From Octopus sinensis (lineage: Eukaryota), in contig NW_021836668.1 of assembly GCF_006345805.1 (NCBI RefSeq), positions 1 through 23,161 of the forward strand: DNA of 23,161 nucleotides, written 5' to 3'. Under the pieces are notes generated by a model. That model searched no databases. It was not told the origin of the DNA and was given only the letters and a program-made list of their open reading frames with translations. Each line of letters opens with the position of its first letter. Positions within the stretch are counted from its first letter, which is position 1. The position numbers and the translations under genes are program-made. Shown piece by piece: positions 2,090 through 22,894 of this stretch.

Positions 2090-2320
2090 TATTTAAAGCA
2101 GCAGAAAATTCAACAAAACCTGTTACTCTGAGTTTTCCGTTGCCGTTCATCGGACTGTTTTTGCTAGAATAGCAAAAACAGTCCGATGAACGGCAACGGG
2201 AAACTCAGAGTAACTGGTTTTGTTGAATTTTCTGATGCTTTAAATATAGCATATTACTCTACCACTGGTATTTGAGTACTCTTTTTTCCACCTTGTTTCA
2301 CATTTATGTGTTTACTCCGG
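2090..2320 (+). mobile_element. Penelope-like element terminal remnant: 77-bp inverted repeat (2090-2166 / 2170-2246) plus unique tail, embedded in (TA)n
   Basis: Arms match with 3 mismatches around a 3-nt loop (GAA); arms contain a minimal hammerhead; (TA)n on both sides. Confidence 0.7.
2171..2224 (+). ncRNA. Minimal type I hammerhead ribozyme (variant core CCGAUGA)
   Basis: Stem I agcaaaaacagt 2171-2182 / actggttttgtt 2213-2224; CCGATGA 2183-2189; stem II ACG-GCAA-CGG; GAAA 2200-2203; stem III A-CTC-A-GAG-T; GUA triplet, predicted cut after 2212. Confidence 0.7.
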
Positions 2321-3900: not shown

Positions 3901-4072
3901 TCGCGTGTGCGTGTGGATGCGTGTATGTATTTGTGTATGTGCGTATGTATATGTTTATGTGTGTTTGTGTGTCCGTGTATCTGTGTGTTTATGTGTGTGT
4001 TTGTGTGTGTATGTATGTGTCTGTGTTTATGCGTGTTTGTGTGTGCGCGTATGTATGTGTTTGTGCTTGTGT
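3901..4072. repeat. Degenerate (TG)n microsatellite, resuming at 4508-4690 after the MITE
   Basis: Direct reading. Confidence 0.9.
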
Positions 4073-4073
4073 A

Positions 4074-4506
4074 GGATCTTTTCGGTTTGAACGGCAGTTT
4101 TTCTAGCGGTGTCATATGAAATTGTCACCCATAATTATGACCCTAGTATCGATCTATTGCGTTTCAATCTATTTTAGGGTTAGGGTTAGGGTTAGGGTTA
4201 GGGTCAGGGATGGGGGGGAGGGTATCTTTTTTTCTTCACAAATGTAAATAAACCCAATCTCTTTCTTAAACGAGGGACATATTCATACGGCACAATGTTT
4301 TTTTACCTCAGTAAACGTCAGTGATTGGTTGAAATTAAGAAATTGAAGAAAAAAAAACAACAAATATCTTACAAACTATAGAATTTTCTCAATAAAGCCA
4401 AGAGAAAAAGATGTTTTATAAACACATTCTACCAGCATACGATGTTTAAAATTTTTTAGTTACCAAGAAATTATGTTAAAAACTGCCGTTCAAACCGAAA
4501 ATATCC
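4074..4506. mobile_element. Non-autonomous TIR element (MITE) with internal (TTAGGG)5
   Basis: 29-bp TIRs ggatcttttcggtttgaacggcagttttt / aaaaactgccgttcaaaccgaaaatatcc (1 mismatch); TTAGGG x5 at 4174-4203; related copy at 8173-8436. Confidence 0.9.
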
Positions 4507-6230: not shown

Positions 6231-6812
6231 GGGCAGCGGATTGGCAGTGTCGTTATATACCTTAAGGCCATTTACTCTGAATATTTTACGTTCTAAGTTC
6301 AAATTACGCAGAGGCGTAGAAGTGGCTGTGTGGTAAGTAGCTTGCTTACCAACCACATGGTTCCGGGTTCAGTCCCACTGCGTGGCACCTTGGGCAGGTG
6401 TCTTCTACCTTAGCCTCGGGCCGACCAAAGCCTTGTGAGTGGAGTTGGTAGACGGAAACTGAAAGAAGCCCGTCGTATATATGTATATATATGTGTGTAT
6501 GTGTACATGTGTGTGTGTGTACATGTGTGTATATGTTTGTGTGTCTACATGTGTGTATATGTTTGTGTGTCTGTGTTTGTTGCCCCCCCCAACATCGCTT
6601 GACAGGGGACGTAAACACTGGTGTGTTTACGTCCCCGTCACTTAGCGGTTCGGCAAAAGATACCGATAGAATAAGTACTAGGCTTACAAAGAATAAGTCC
6701 TCGGCTCGATTTGCTCGACTAAAGTTGATGCTCCAGCATGGCCACAGTAAAATGACTGAAACAAGTTAAAGAGTATGTCAAACTTTGTCTTTGGTCCATC
6801 GGGGGTCGATAC
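6231..6812 (+). mobile_element. Old SINE family B copy (6231-6312 plus 6776-6812) split by a family-A insertion
   Basis: acgttctaagttcaaattacgcagagg resumes after the insert as gtcaaactttgtctt...ggggtcgata. Confidence 0.7.
6313..6775 (+). mobile_element. SINE family A, full length
   Basis: A box TGGCTGTGTGG, B box GGTTCAGTCC, CORE-like segment, internal microsatellite, tail. Confidence 0.95.
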
Positions 6813-6859
6813 AATTGTAAATATGCAGCTTAGAGCTGTAAAAAAGGGAAGCGAAACTA

Positions 6860-7285
6860 ATTGTGCTGGATGTGACGATAGGGAAATCCTATAATTTTAT
6901 AAAGGCATTGAAAATATCATCAGGATAAGTAGTACAATGGGAGTTGGGTGCTTGGTGCAGGAGAAAAGGGTCCAGGAAAAATGGTGCCCGATTGAGATCC
7001 TCGATCGTTTATGCGAAACACTTTCGCCCATTATGATACAATAGATATTACCAGGAGCGTGTTCTATATCCAATGTGTGGCCTTCCTATATTAAGTTTAG
7101 GTCACTTTTATATTTGCGAAGTTGTGAACCATTTTATTCAATTTTGTCGATCCAACGATAAGAGCTTCCATTCACAGACGATCGAAGGGCGATGGATGCT
7201 CGCCAAGAAGAAACTCGGGTGACAATGCAGAACAAGTGATGTTTTACTTACGGCATATTTATATGAGCATCTGTGGTAAAATAGC
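6860..7285 (+). pseudogene. Decayed Merlin / IS1595 (ISXO2-like DDE) transposase
   Basis: Reading across stops and frameshifts: KYHQ..GSWVLG, DRLCETLSPIM..ILPG..SISNVWPSY, VVNH..NFVDP, HSQTIEGRW..AKKKL, AYLYEHLW, collinear with Merlin motifs. Confidence 0.82.
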
Positions 7286-7336
7286 TCTGCACTGCGAGAA
7301 CACCTTGTATGTTAAGTGCTTTGTTTCCATATTATA

Positions 7337-7515
7337 TTGGTGTCAAATGTCGGCACAAGACCGGTTATTTCAGGGAGAGGCCAGTCGATCACATCGACCC
7401 CAGTGCACAACTGGTACTCATTTTATCGACCCCGAAAAGATGAAAGGCAAAGTGGACCTCAGCGGAATTTGAACTCAGAACGTAAAGATGGACGAAATGC
7501 CGCAAAGAATTTTGT
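7337..7515 (-). mobile_element. SINE family B variant (alternative tail)
   Basis: actggtactcattttatcgaccccgaaaagatgaaaggcaaagt...gaatttgaactcag. Confidence 0.85.
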
Positions 7516-7528
7516 GAACTAATCATTC

Positions 7529-7759
7529 TTATTTCTTTACTGCCCACAAGGGGCTAAACATAGAGGGGACAAACAAGGACAGACAAAGGAATTAAGTCGA
7601 TTACATCGACCCCAGTACGTAACTAGTGCTTAATTTATCGACCCCGAAAGGATGAAAGGCAAAGTCGACCTCGGCAGAATTTGAACTCACAACGTAACGG
7701 CAGACGAAATACCGCTAAGCGTTTCGTCCAGCGTGCTAACGATTTTGCTAGCTCGCCCC
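7529..7759 (-). mobile_element. SINE family B, full length (tRNA-derived head, conserved central domain cctttcatcctttcggggtcgataaa)
   Basis: High identity to 11463-11693, 20753-20985 and 22553-22784. Confidence 0.95.
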
Positions 7760-8055
7760 CTTGTTTTCATGTTATATTAATATAATGAAATTATGGGATT
7801 TTTACTGTCGTCACTTCTGGTTTCCATCGCGATTTACTTTCACTTTTTAAGACACTAAACTGCATATTAACCGAATCAGTAAGGAGCCAGCCAAGTACTA
7901 AGATCGATAGCATCAACAAAGCCCTTCTCGACTAATCCTCTCCGTCGCTAATATATAATTTTTACCCAGCTCGCCAGCTATTTGCGACAGCAGTGACTGA
8001 TAAGTCACTGTTTTCTATATACGAGTAGAAGCTAGGTTGACAGGTAACAGTAATA

Positions 8056-8116
8056 GTGGATATCTGCTACTGATGAAGTGCAAACATGCTGAAATCACGT
8101 GATATGGCAGTTCCAC
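8056..8116 (+). ncRNA. Type I hammerhead ribozyme with intact core and palindromic stem III
   Basis: CTGATGA 8070-8076; stem II AGTG/TGCT; GAAA 8091-8094; ATCACGTGAT 8094-8103; AUA triplet, predicted cut after 8104; stem I CTGCTA/TGGCAG plus distal GTGGA/TCCAC. Confidence 0.85.
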
Positions 8117-8172
8117 CGCCGGTGCTGGAAAATTTTCTGTACTTTTAAGTACTTCACGTCTATACAATATAG

Positions 8173-8436
8173 GACAATTTCATATGACACCGGAAATAAT
8201 TGTTGTTGACACATTACGGCAGAAATCGTTTTCACCTCAATAGACGTCATTGATTGGTTGAAATTGCCGAAATGCAAGAAATTAAAGACCAAATATCTTA
8301 CAAACTACAGAATTTTCTCAAGAAAGCCAAGAGAAAAAGATGTTTTATAAACACAGTCTACTGGTATACGAAGTTTAAAATTTTTTAGTTACAAAGAATT
8401 TATTTTTAAAATTTGCCGGTCAAACCGAAAGGATCC
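8173..8436. mobile_element. Partial second copy of the MITE family at 4074-4506
   Basis: 8215-8436 aligns with 4285-4506 including the right TIR ...caaaccgaaaggatcc followed by TA. Confidence 0.88.
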
Positions 8437-8443
8437 TACATAA

Positions 8444-10740: not shown

Positions 10741-11462
10741 CCCAATAAAAATAATAACAATAATGCTTTCTTTATTTATACAGTAGGCGCACAAACGTTC
10801 GAAACCTCAGTCCCATGTATTCAATGAACTTTAAACACACACACACACACACCACACACACACACACACACACAGAGAAAATAAAGATAAAATAAACGGA
10901 CTTTGTTCCTTTCTTTCTTTCCTTCTCTCTTTATTGTTTGTTATTGTTGTTTTGTGTTTAGAAAGGCAATTTGTTTTCTGGTTTTATTCTTATAATTCTA
11001 TGCGTTTCTTTCCAGCAAGCGCTGAATGGGCCTCGCTTCACTTGCTTCTAAAATCTCACTTGCTCTATTCACCTCTAAAAACCTTTCGGTGCAGTTCGAT
11101 TATTCCAGCCAATGAATTCACTTTGTCCCGCCATTATAACTAAACACACACACACACACACACACATACACACACACATTTTTATATACATGTGTGTGAG
11201 TGTCGGTGTGGGTGATAAACAGTTCAGTACGAACCAACAAGGAAGCTTGTGTCAGAAGTTTTTAACCTGGGTAATAAGCGCCACCTCGCCTGTATTTTGA
11301 ACCTGTGTAAAAACGTCCCACTCGCTTTTCGTGGTTAACCTTGATAGCTGCACTTTTGAGGATATCGTGAGCTTACAAGAGAGCAGCAAATATCAAGGGG
11401 GTTAACTAAAGGCTATAGGAGCGTTAAGTATTTAAGGAAGACAAATTTTCTTAGAACTATAT

Positions 11463-11693
11463 ATTTCTTTACTACCCACAAGGGGCTAAACACAGAGGGG
11501 ACAAACAAGGACAGACAAACGGATTAAGTCGATTATAATGACCCCAGTGTGTAACTGGTACTTAATTTATCGACTCCGAAAGGATGAAAGGCAAAGCCGA
11601 CCTCGGCGGAATTTGAACTGAGAACGTAACGACAGACGAAATACGGCTACGCATTTCGCCCGGCGTGCTAACGTTTCTGCCAGCTCGCCGCCC
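11463..11693 (-). mobile_element. Young full-length SINE family B with perfect 18-bp TSD
   Basis: attttcttagaactatat at 11445-11462 and 11694-11711. Confidence 0.96.
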
Positions 11694-12335: not shown

Positions 12336-12913
12336 CACAGACATGCAAGAAATAAATAGACACCTTTAATTTTCAAAATTTCTGATCTAAGCGTCTTAAT
12401 ATGTTTTCAACGGTGTAGAATTTACAATGTAATTATTCTTTTTCATTCCAGGTGCCATTATATTAAACATTTGCCAAGAGTAACCGTGCCACGCACAAAA
12501 TATTCAGCAGAACTGCCAGATTTTCAAACAGGTCGTATTGTTGGGCAATCTGTGGCTGGTCTTAGCCAGCGAAAAATTGCCGAAAATTTTCAAATTTCTC
12601 TTGCTGCTGTTAATAGAATTATAGTGCAATTCAAAAGCCAAAGAAAAGAATCAATAGATTCTCATTCCGGCCGACCTGGGTCCTCGGAAAGGAATCTTCG
12701 CTGTTTGAAGAGAATTGTGGAAAACGAACCCCGTTCGAAAGTTTCTGGCATTGCCAAACAGCTAGAAGTTAGTCCAAGAACGTGTGCTACATATCTGCAT
12801 AAACTTGGGTATTATGGACGAGCAGCTAGAAGAAAACCTCTCCTTCACCCAATTAATATCAAATAAAAGATTTTGAAAATTAAAGGTGTATGTTTACTTC
12901 CTGCATGTCTGTG
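12336..12913 (+). mobile_element. Internally deleted Tc1-like element with 44-bp TIRs and TA TSD
   Basis: TIRs 12336-12379 / 12870-12913 (4 mismatches); TA at 12334-12335 and 12914-12915. Confidence 0.93.
12471..12866 (+). pseudogene. N-terminal paired-like HTH domain of a Tc1 transposase, DDE domain absent
   Basis: ELPDFQTGRIVG...GLSQRKIA...SGRPG...LHKLGYYGRAARRKPLL; uninterrupted frame ending at the right TIR; no ATG start. Confidence 0.9.
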
Positions 12914-13899: not shown

Positions 13900-14343
13900 T
13901 AATTAATAGCACCAGAAGTATAAATACCAAAAGGTAATATTTAACCCCACTTAAAAGCGGGTGTTGTGTTAGAACACAGTATACTGGGTTATTTAGTATA
14001 GAAGAACCTCTCATATGGACTTGTGGTGCATATAAGCACTCGTGTTTATATCACTAGCAGGAAATAATCATCCGCTATCACCACCAGACAACCAGATCAC
14101 GTAATTTCGGCCTTCCTTGACCTCGTCAGTTGTAAACGCCCGAATGTAGAAATAGCTGCGATTCCTCCATCAGCGATGTACGTAGAATCTCAGTATCTAA
14201 TTAGGCACTGGAGTCACAAATAGCCATTAGGCTTATTAAAAAATAATTAATAGAAACAGAAGCAGTATTATTGCCAAGAGGTAATATTTATCTCTACCTA
14301 ATAGTGGAGGTTGTGTTAGAAAACAGGATACTGCGGTAATTAC
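13900..14343 (-). mobile_element. Terminally redundant ~344-bp unit with one hammerhead (Penelope pLTR or retrozyme-like)
   Basis: Diverged direct repeats 13900-13995 and 14244-14343 (taattaatag..cagaag...ggtaatattta...gttgtgttagaa.acag.atactg) flank the ribozyme. Confidence 0.65.
14085..14142 (-). ncRNA. Type I hammerhead ribozyme with intact core and near-palindromic stem III
   Basis: Minus strand: cgggcg-ttt-acaa CTGACGA GGTC-aaggaa-GGCC GAAA TTACGTGA TC tggt-tgtctg; AUC triplet, predicted cut between 14095 and 14094. Confidence 0.8.
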
Positions 14344-14353
14344 CATTCTGTAT

Positions 14354-16772: not shown

Positions 16773-17322
16773 CTTTTACTCTTTTACTTGTTTCAGTCAT
16801 TTGAATGTGGCCATGCTGGAGCACCGCCTTTGGTCGAGGAAATCGACCCCAGGACTTATTCTTTGTAAGCCTGGTACTTATTCTATCGGTCTCTTTTGCC
16901 GAACCGCTATGTTACTGGGACGTAAACACACCAGCATCGGTTGTCAAGCGATGTTGGTGAGACAAACACAGACACACAAACACACACACACATACATATG
17001 TATAAACATATATACGACGGGCTTCTTTCAGTTTCCTATTTCTTTACTACCCACAAGGGGCTAAACACAGAGGGAACAAACAAGGACAGACAAATGGATT
17101 AAGTCGATTATATCGATACCAGTGTGTAACTGGTACCTATTTAATCGACCCCGAAAGGATGAAAGGCAAACTCGAGTTTCCGTCCACCAAATCCACTCAC
17201 AAGGCTTTGATCGGCCCGAGGCTATAGTAGAAGACACTTGCCGAAGGTGCCACGCAGTGGGACTGAACCCGGAACCATGTGGTTGGTAAGCAAGCTACTT
17301 ACCACACAGCCACTCCTACGCC
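16772..17322 (-). mobile_element. SINE family A, full length, interrupted by a family B insertion
   Basis: Consensus ...ctttcagtttcc|gtc.accaaatcc... is split at 17036/17175. Confidence 0.94.
17037..17174 (-). mobile_element. 5'-truncated SINE family B with 7-bp TSD
   Basis: AGTTTCC at 17030-17036 and 17175-17181. Confidence 0.93.
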
Positions 17323-20752: not shown

Positions 20753-20985
20753 ACGGCAAGCTGGCAGAAACGTTAGCACGTCGGGCGAAATGCTGAGCAG
20801 TATTTCGTCTGCCGCTACGTTCTGAGTTCAAATTCCGCCGAGGTCGATTTCGCCTTTCATCCTTTCGGAGTCGATAAATTAAGTACCAGTTACGCACTTG
20901 GGTCGATGTAATCGACTTAATCCCTTTGTCAGTCCTTGTTTGTCCCCTTTTTATTTAGCCCCTTGTGGGTAGTAAAGAAATAGGT
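20753..20985 (+). mobile_element. SINE family B, full length
   Basis: gctggcagaaacgttagc...gagttcaaattccgccgagg...taaagaaataggt. Confidence 0.95.
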
Positions 20986-22552: not shown

Positions 22553-22784
22553 GGCGAGCTGGCGGAATCGTTAGCACGCCGGGCGAAATGCTTAGCGGTA
22601 TTTCGGTTGCCGTTACGTTGTGAGTTCAAATTCCGCCGAGGTCAACTTTGCCTTTCATTCTTTCGGGGTCGATAAATTAAGTACCAGTTACGCACTGGGG
22701 TCGATGTAATCGACTTAATACCTATGTCTGTCCATGTTTGTCCTCTCTATGTTTAGCCCCTTGTGGGTAATAAAAAAATAGGTA
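22553..22784 (+). mobile_element. SINE family B, full length
   Basis: Matches 20753-20985. Confidence 0.95.
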
Positions 22785-22894
22785 TTGCTGCTGTTGTTGT
22801 TGTTGTCGTTGCCTAGCTGCAGCTCAATGCTGACTGGGCAGTTCCAGTCGTGACCATTCCATTGAGTCTCTTTCTCTCTACGTCTGATCCACAG

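What the first reader, a model, noticed from the sequence alone, without database searches (positions are those of the whole stretch)
8056..8116. Best-preserved hammerhead: complete core, perfect 10-nt palindromic stem III, bulged stem I
Seen: GTGGA-tat-CTGCTA CTGATGA AGTG-caaaca-TGCT GAAA TCACGTGA TA TGGCAG-t-TCCAC. All conserved core nucleotides are present. A monomer would need a 2-nt loop III, so the palindrome suggests dimeric folding. The stem I internal loop could contact loop II. This is the most likely of the three to be active.
Basis: partly seen in the sequence, partly recalled or inferred. Interest (0 to 1): 0.78.

Follow-up and report, generated by a model that had tools for sequence, protein, structure and literature searches.

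The report
Hammerhead ribozyme in a fossil retrozyme
This is a real, complete hammerhead self-cleaving RNA motif inside a lone, truncated copy of a 346-base mobile repeat (a retrozyme) scattered through this animal genome and likely spread by Penelope-type retrotransposons; it is a new example of a known kind, and whether this copy still cuts is untested.

Summary
The motif is real: all core bases, stems I-III and the 10-nt palindrome are present at 8056-8116. A strict descriptor hits once in the window and 0 times in 200 shuffles; Rfam HH9 scores 26.5 bits, below its cut-off of 52. It is a canonical metazoan type I hammerhead in a solo, 3'-truncated copy (about 7931-8171) of a dispersed 346-bp repeat. 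69 other copies were examined, and a sister family (349 bp) also has a copy in the window. Across copies the core is 93% conserved against 75% for flanks, and stems covary, so the family's masters were selected to cleave. Copy ends cluster and abut microsatellites, and 5' ends often carry inversions: a Penelope-type insertion signature. This copy has the most complete hammerhead of the 70, but its stem II is weakened by two G·U pairs, its stem I extension is largely lost and it has no partner in cis. A monomer does not need a 2-nt loop: 2 bp plus an ACGU tetraloop is the normal form. Verdict: new member of a known kind (non-LTR retrozyme), probably an inert fossil in vivo. Interest 0.3.

The parts
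8056..8116 (+). Canonical type I hammerhead ribozyme motif
   Evidence: Sequence; Rfam HH9 26.5 bits, below cut-off 52; descriptor 1 hit vs 0 in 200 shuffles
8056..8069 (+). 5' arm of stem I: distal 5 bp (8056-8060), UAU internal loop (8061-8063), proximal 6 bp (8064-8069)
   Evidence: Pairs with 8105-8116; pair probabilities 0.96-1.0 for 9 of 11 pairs in the 61-mer; covariation
8070..8076 (+). Catalytic core 5' strand C3-A9 (CUGAUGA)
   Evidence: Core columns 93% conserved vs 75% for flanks; C3-G8 to U3-A8 covariation with family B
8077..8090 (+). Stem-loop II: A-U, G-C, U·G, G·U, loop CAAACA; the two wobbles sit at CpG-decay columns
   Evidence: CpG columns 8079/8080 and 8087/8088; hairpin +1.5 kcal/mol vs -3.0 for the 3-bp family-majority stem
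8091..8104 (+). GAAA core (8091-8094), palindromic stem III (8094-8103) and UH (8103-8104); predicted cut at 8104/8105
   Evidence: Sequence; palindrome duplex -12.9 kcal/mol; family triplet AUC in 39 of 69 copies, AUA in 1 of 69
8105..8116 (+). 3' arm of stem I, with the single U8111 of the internal loop
7931..8171 (+). Solo, 3'-truncated copy of a 346-bp retrozyme-type repeat (family A) that carries the hammerhead; 17-nt deletion after 8131
   Evidence: (nhmmer 7938-8171, E 2e-64); the deletion is absent in the orthologous locus of run X7
8172..8440 (+). One arm of a high-copy inverted-repeat (MITE-like) element that replaces the 3' part of the retrozyme copy
   Evidence: Genome hits start at 8172 and occur as inverted pairs; homologous to window 4070-4126 and 4286-4506; the X7 orthologue stops matching at 8165
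13942..14346 (-). Copy of sister family B (349-bp unit); its hammerhead is at 14143-14083 with 4 of 6 stem I pairs

Best explanation
The motif is a complete canonical type I hammerhead inside a solo, truncated genomic copy of a 346-bp non-LTR retrozyme family, likely inserted by Penelope-type retrotransposon enzymes and now likely a neutral fossil. How the family works (inferred from anatomy and from PMC7229834): multimeric transcripts self-cleave after AUC, with the palindromic stem III allowing double-hammerhead folding between adjacent units. Monomers are ligated into self-paired circles of about 346 nt. A Penelope-type reverse transcriptase/GIY-YIG endonuclease copies circular or multimeric RNA into microsatellite targets, starting at preferred sites 140-210 nt past the cut. 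This gives permuted copies of about one unit with the ribozyme intact in the middle, ragged 5' ends and frequent 5' inversions. Shown: the motif, the family, its covariation and its end pattern. Inferred: cleavage, circles and the mobilising enzyme. This copy would be predicted to cut at 8104/8105 in vitro, slowly as a monomer and better as a dimer (about 65%). It cannot make a circle, having one ribozyme and about 240 of 346 nt, and a role in vivo is unlikely (about 10%).
For: Family: 69 other distinct copies examined; unit 346 bp, circularly permuted; 40% GC; majority unit folds as a circle at z -4.7; no Penelope ORF beside any copy. Selection on masters: core 540/581 (93%) vs flanks 6041/8016 (75%) in 53 similarity-found copies, and 279/297 vs 3032/4054 in the 27 found with another copy as query. 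Covariation over 48 A + 20 B sequences: 81% of cells paired vs 72.5% shuffled and 18-45% slid; 170 two-sided changes vs 67. Stem III stays self-complementary through changes of sequence and length (outer pair of the central four Watson-Crick in 52 of 59). Insertion signature: 49 of 66 3' ends lie at +140..+210; a microsatellite follows 27 of those 49 vs 8 of 66 at 5' ends and 12.6% background; an inverted piece lies beside 25 of 66 5' ends (20 of about 60 loci) vs 1 of 66 3' ends; 35 of 69 copies are at least one unit long. Autonomous RT + GIY-YIG elements exist in the genome and end at microsatellites in 15 of 16 cases. Fossil state of this copy: 77% identical to the majority; CpG decay in stem II; 6 of 30 stem I extension pairs kept vs median 21; truncated by a MITE-like arm; the orthologue in run X7 differs at 11 of about 280 positions, at least two of them inferred to lie in the ribozyme.
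Against: No cleavage was measured. Rfam score is below cut-off. ViennaRNA gives the hammerhead fold p = 3e-6 (9e-6 for the family majority too) and z -1.5 for the 61-mer. RNAalifold recovers only 3 bp of stem II. Two of five covariation measures do not exceed the shuffles (428/500 and 100/500), and two-sided changes largely reflect a few family or subfamily events. Direct tandems are rare in family A (2 of about 60 loci), unlike classical retrozymes. The 30 Penelope-type loci examined share no sequence with either family (best E 0.79), so the mobiliser is not identified. The copy's ribozyme is unusually intact for its decayed flanks, which pure neutrality explains only through ascertainment.
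Confidence: 0.8

Rival explanations
1. This copy has been co-opted: the host keeps the ribozyme to cut a transcript running through the locus, as with intronic HH9/HH10 hammerheads of amniotes.
For: Only copy of 70 with a full core and all counted pairs, while its stem I extension ranks 67 of 70. The two ribozyme differences inferred against the X7 orthologue (8069, 8106) both keep pairing.
Against: The finding was picked for being intact and served as the query. At least 2 changes in 61 nt is about what 11 in 280 predicts (2.4), so there is no excess conservation (inferred). Stem II carries two decay wobbles. No host gene was seen in the 23-kb contig: the 9 window ORFs scanned gave only a transposase.
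Confidence: 0.08
2. The repeat is not an independent retrozyme but the detached terminal repeat (pLTR) of an old, extinct Penelope-like element, left as 5'-truncated insertions.
For: The insertion signature is Penelope-like (passages of 10.1101/2021.04.23.441226). Long arrays are rare. bioRxiv 10.64898/2026.07.22.740005 derives retrozymes from pLTRs.
Against: No RT or GIY-YIG domain in the 91 longest ORFs around the copies. Copies that extend 5' run into the previous unit rather than into an ORF. The hammerhead is canonical, not the minimal form in this genome's Penelope elements. Tandems of 3-4 units exist in family B.
Confidence: 0.1
3. The motif is an obligate dimer and is inactive as a single copy.
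For: Self-complementarity of loop III is kept across subfamilies. The monomer MFE mispairs core UGAU with the palindrome's AUCA, while the cofold takes the double-hammerhead topology. Axolotl motifs with similar weak stems need dimers (PMC7229834 passages).
Against: A 2-bp stem III with a tetraloop is called typical of invertebrate hammerheads, most of which cleave efficiently (PMC7229834). Nearest-neighbour folding ignores tertiary contacts.
Confidence: 0.35

Closest known systems
Metazoan non-LTR retrozymes (Cervera and de la Pena 2020, PMC7229834; mussel 350-390 bp, axolotl 330/350 bp, coral 220-240 bp)
   Same: Non-coding 346-bp unit, 40% GC, one canonical type I hammerhead per unit, self-paired circular fold, two related families, coexistence with autonomous Penelope elements that carry minimal hammerheads.
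   Different: Copies here are old (median 65% pairwise identity) and mostly solo, permuted copies of about one unit rather than arrays. No circRNA was shown. This copy is truncated.
Canonical type I hammerheads of Schistosoma Sm-alpha and newt satellite DNA (PMC4209133, PMC6155905)
   Same: Helix I 6 bp plus internal loop, helix II 4 bp, short helix III with a palindromic loop; double-hammerhead option.
   Different: Base of stem II is non-canonical in about half of family A (C·A 22, A·A 11 of 69). This copy has A-U there and an AUA triplet.
Rfam Hammerhead_HH9 (RF02275)
   Same: Full-length alignment including the internal loop and loop II.
   Different: 26.5 bits vs cut-off 52. HH9 is, from recall and the PMC6155905 passage on conserved intronic amniote hammerheads, a domesticated motif; this one is a repeat copy.
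Penelope-like element pLTR hammerheads (PMC4209133; 10.1101/2021.04.23.441226)
   Same: Microsatellite targets, 5' truncation, 5' inversions; U3-A8 core variant in sister family B.
   Different: No adjacent RT/GIY-YIG ORF; canonical rather than minimal hammerhead; no sequence match to the 30 Penelope-type loci examined.

Membership tests
Canonical type I hammerhead | Conserved core CUGANGA / GAAA / UH | tested here: met
   11 of 11 core bases plus H17 = A
Canonical type I hammerhead | Helix I 6 bp open-ended, helix II 4 bp, helix III 1-2 bp with a small palindromic loop | tested here: met
   helix II has 2 wobbles
Canonical type I hammerhead | Loop 1 - loop 2 tertiary contact nucleotides | tested here: inconclusive
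   Aligns to the HH9 loops; 8063 is U where 23 of 32 copies have C; contact not modelled
Canonical type I hammerhead | Site-specific self-cleavage | not testable with these tools
   Needs an in vitro assay
Rfam HH9 (RF02275) | Gathering score of 52 bits | tested here: not met
   26.5 bits; a relative, L041, scores 31.2
Non-LTR retrozyme | Non-coding unit of 150-450 bp, GC below 50%, one type I hammerhead per unit | tested here: met
   346 bp, 40% GC, no Penelope ORF
Non-LTR retrozyme | Occurs as tandem repeats | tested here: inconclusive
   Family A: 2 direct dimers in about 60 loci, 35 of 69 copies at least one unit long; family B: 3-4 units in L069 and L079
Non-LTR retrozyme | Highly self-paired circular fold | tested here: met
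   Majority units z -4.7 and -5.3 vs 40 shuffles; computed on the majority sequence, not on this copy
Non-LTR retrozyme | Expressed as linear and circular RNA | not testable with these tools
   Only assembled contigs were available, which cannot show ends, strand or circles
Active retrozyme (definition of 10.64898/2026.07.22.740005) | [quoted passage not shown] | tested here: not met
   One family-A hammerhead in the contig
Penelope-like element | RT + GIY-YIG ORF flanked by pLTRs | tested here: not met
Penelope-like element | 5' truncation, 5' inverted copy, microsatellite target | tested here: met
   Met for the family; this copy has lost its 3' end and has no inverted piece

The most novel reading that the evidence does not exclude
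Two retrozyme families in this genome share one stem III palindrome (88 exact sites) and cross-compatible stem I arms. Solo copies like this one could therefore act in trans, forming mixed double hammerheads that cleave or license the RNAs of either family. The dispersed copies would also record, in their fixed 3' ends, microsatellite targets and 5' inversions, how Penelope enzymes copy retrozyme circles.
Probability: 0.12. Interest if true: 0.6.

Novelty: new member of a known kind. Interest (0 to 1): 0.3.

Why it matters
The single motif matters little: canonical type I hammerheads occur by the thousand in animal repeats. The family is of moderate interest to retroelement specialists. PMC7229834 names Penelope elements only as 'a strong candidate' for mobilising animal retrozymes, and the 2026 preprint argues from co-occurrence and phylogeny in 31 vertebrates and 4 invertebrates. 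The end pattern found here (clustered 3' ends at microsatellites, 5' inversions, permuted copies longer than one unit) is direct insertion-site evidence for that route and for a circular or multimeric template. I found no paper describing retrozymes in octopus: 'hammerhead ribozyme'+'octopus' and 'retrozyme'+'octopus' listed only incidental co-mentions. The library is open-access only, and the supplement of PMC7229834 could not be read.

Tried and rejected
Expression: no RNA holder was listed for 7880-8200. Two possibly-RNA contig sets (X13, X16) held only short pieces of other family members. Neither is evidence either way. Young arrays of family A: none among the 40 scored candidates of each DNA search (175 and 555 first-look candidates) or the pattern hits; not exhaustive. 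The first genome search was swamped by the downstream MITE-like arm, and the first read-laying by flanking repeats. Autonomous partner: 30 of 147 GIY-YIG loci were fetched and none resembles the families. Pfam on 91 locus ORFs and 9 window ORFs gave no RT or GIY-YIG; the stretch 6790-7320 was scanned only through its ORF 7128-7469. Thermodynamic folding does not discriminate active from inactive copies, since the majority sequence misfolds too. RNAalifold was uninformative. A bacterial promoter/terminator scan is irrelevant here; its hairpin at 7989-8012 is part of the repeat. A paper search with loose terms returned unrelated cephalopod papers. Three look-ups of earlier findings returned nothing. 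Chance motif: rejected (and the family evidence).

Full report
Observation. The 61 bases at 8056-8116 are as described: core CUGAUGA 8070-8076, GAAA 8091-8094, triplet AUA with the predicted cut at 8104/8105, stem I of 6 + 5 bp with a 3x1 internal loop, stem II of A-U, G-C, U·G, G·U with loop CAAACA, and a perfect palindrome at 8094-8103. A strict type I descriptor hits only this site in the window and never in 200 dinucleotide shuffles. Rfam HH9 aligns over its full length at 26.5 bits (E 0.0088; cut-off 52). The window is a whole 23-kb contig of a 2.72-Gb, microsatellite-rich genome. That it is octopus-like is my recalled inference, not a tool result.

What it sits in. Searching the genome with 7790-8170 gave dispersed matches of about 200 bp at 69-81% identity. 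Alignment shows a circularly permuted unit of 346 bp, family A. The window copy spans about 7931-8171, lacks 17 nt after 8131 and is followed by one arm of a MITE-like element at 8172-8440. A sister family B with a 349-bp unit and 67% identity between majority sequences has a copy at 13942-14346 on the minus strand. I examined 69 distinct family-A hammerheads besides the window's: 53 found by DNA similarity and 16 by pattern. Only 40 candidates were scored per DNA search, so these are samples, not copy numbers. In the first 33 copies the median pairwise identity was 65% and the window copy was 77% identical to the majority. An exact pattern for core, stem II length and this palindrome matches 88 genomic sites, mostly family B, against 0 for the reversed control.

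Selection and covariation. Core columns match the majority in 540 of 581 cells (93%) against 6041 of 8016 (75%) for flanks. In the 27 copies found with a different copy as query the figures are 94% and 75%. The copies therefore descend from many diverged masters whose cores were kept. On an alignment of 48 A and 20 B sequences (47 of the 53 similarity-found A copies plus the window's; 20 of 37 B copies), 81% of cells pair against 72.5% in shuffles and 18-45% in slid controls, and 170 cells show two-sided changes against 67, including C3-G8 to U3-A8 in the core. Against this, the two measures that count pairs or pair types do not exceed the shuffles (428 and 100 of 500), RNAalifold recovers only stem II, and a flanks-only tree shows the 8064/8110 C-G to U-A change largely marking one subfamily. 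The covariation is real but rests on few events. Stem III keeps self-complementarity while changing sequence and length: the outer pair of the central four bases is Watson-Crick in 52 of 59 copies, and the inner pair is Watson-Crick or a CpG-decay product in 47 of 59.

Monomer or dimer. PMC4209133 (part 1 of 4 read) describes most metazoan hammerheads as helix I 6 bp, helix II 4 bp and helix III 1-2 bp with a 2-4-nt palindromic loop, folding as dimers in tandem repeats. PMC7229834 (passages and section 14; supplement unreadable) reports co-transcriptional cleavage of cloned coral and mussel retrozyme copies at about 0.8 and 0.1 per min, and dimer dependence in axolotl. A monomer here can use 2 bp plus the loop ACGU, so the '2-nt loop' argument fails, although dimers remain likely for the family. 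Cofolding two copies gives the double-hammerhead topology at -41.1 against -31.8 kcal/mol for two monomers. The monomer MFE mispairs the core with the palindrome, and the hammerhead fold has p = 3e-6; the family majority fares the same (9e-6), so this does not rank activity. No second family-A copy lies in the contig.

State of this copy. It is the only one of 70 with 11 of 11 core bases and 19 of 19 counted pairs; 22 of the 53 similarity-found copies have an intact core. The sample is biased towards the query. Its stem II has two wobbles at CpG-decay columns and scores +1.5 kcal/mol against -3.0 for the majority's 3-bp stem. Its triplet AUA is rare in the family (1 of 69, against AUC in 39). 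It keeps 6 of 30 pairs of the long stem I extension as aligned (median 21, rank 67 of 70), and in the context 7935-8168 stem I forms with probability about 0.48. Runs X2 and X3 hold the locus with 2 differences in 469 bp. Run X7 holds an orthologue with 22 differences over 7736-8165, retains the 17 nt and continues differently after 8165. From the distance-to-end column I infer that X7 has the family letters at 8069 and 8106; about 5 of its 11 differences in 7886-8165 could not be placed. At least 2 changes in 61 nt matches the local rate, so there is no sign of extra conservation.

How the family spread. Relative to the cut site, 49 of 66 3' ends fall at +140 to +210, while 5' ends scatter (SD 46 vs 99 nt). 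A microsatellite follows 27 of those 49 ends, against 8 of 66 at 5' ends and 12.6% background. An inverted piece adjoins 25 of 66 5' ends (20 of about 60 loci, five counted twice) and 1 of 66 3' ends (three duplicate or tandem rows were dropped from the 69). 35 of 69 copies are at least one unit long and carry the ribozyme intact in the middle, which a cleaved linear monomer could not template; a circle or multimer could (inference). 5' truncation, partial tandems, 5' inversions and microsatellite bias are described as Penelope traits in 10.1101/2021.04.23.441226 (passages). The genome has many GIY-YIG elements (147 of 150 scored); the two tested carry RT plus GIY-YIG. 16 of 30 fetched loci carry a minimal U3-A8 hammerhead, and 15 of those 16 end at a microsatellite. 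None shares sequence with family A or B, so the partner is inferred, not identified. Majority units fold as self-paired circles (z -4.7 and -5.3).

Comparison and novelty. It works like, and fits most defining features of, the non-LTR retrozymes of PMC7229834; tandem organisation is weak and expression untested. bioRxiv 10.64898/2026.07.22.740005 (part 1 of 5 and passages; supplements closed) already describes solo monomers and a Penelope origin, and this copy fails its definition of an active retrozyme. PMC6155905 was seen as passages. Searches for octopus retrozymes or hammerheads listed only incidental co-mentions. For the bolder trans reading: the window copy's 5' stem I arm makes at least 5 of 6 pairs with the 3' arm of 23 of 29 fetched palindrome-bearing sites (after removing 6 duplicate rows; these sites were chosen for the palindrome), but mixed dimers are weaker than the homodimer (median -4.5 over all 35 rows vs -9.3 kcal/mol).

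Verdict. A real hammerhead and a new member of a known kind; the family is better evidenced than any function for this copy. Interest 0.3.

Noticed in passing
window 14143-14083 (minus) and loci L063-L091, L180-L208: Sister family B mostly has the U3-A8 core variant (UUGACAA) with canonical stems, while other members have C3-G8 or mixed cores; it shares the stem III palindrome with family A.
   Followed up: partly
L203:1189-1840: Five tandem 130-bp units at 98% identity, each with a family-B hammerhead: a recent local amplification of a partial unit, or an assembly artefact.
   Followed up: partly
L157, L166, L156 and others among L150-L179: Abundant Penelope-type family with RT, a CxxC linker and C-terminal GIY-YIG (ORFs up to about 780-880 aa), a minimal U3-A8 hammerhead with a palindromic loop III, and (TA)n targets.
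   Followed up: partly
window 8077/8090 column across family A: The base of stem II (10.1-11.1) is C·A in 22 and A·A in 11 of 69 copies, U-A in 18 and A-U in 11: a mismatch is tolerated at a usually paired position.
   Followed up: partly
L038:1297 (+), L038:992 (-), L048:1178 (-): A third hammerhead type with a longer stem II, unrelated to families A and B; an inverted pair in L038.
   Followed up: no
window 2127-2209: Near-perfect hairpin of about 40 bp (inverted repeat) with a CCGAUGA core-like string on both arms.
   Followed up: no
window 4070-4506: Fuller copy of the MITE-like element, with (TTAGGG)6 inside at 4174-4209.
   Followed up: no
window 12360-12863: Tc1/mariner-type transposase fragment (PF01498).
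   Followed up: no
window 7318-7760, 11462-11692, 17037-17267, 20754-20982, 22553-22789: Many copies of a very high-copy SINE-like repeat of about 230 bp, on both strands.
   Followed up: no
window 821, 16518, 16564: Core-like strings that fail the hammerhead descriptor; possibly decayed minimal hammerheads.
   Followed up: partly
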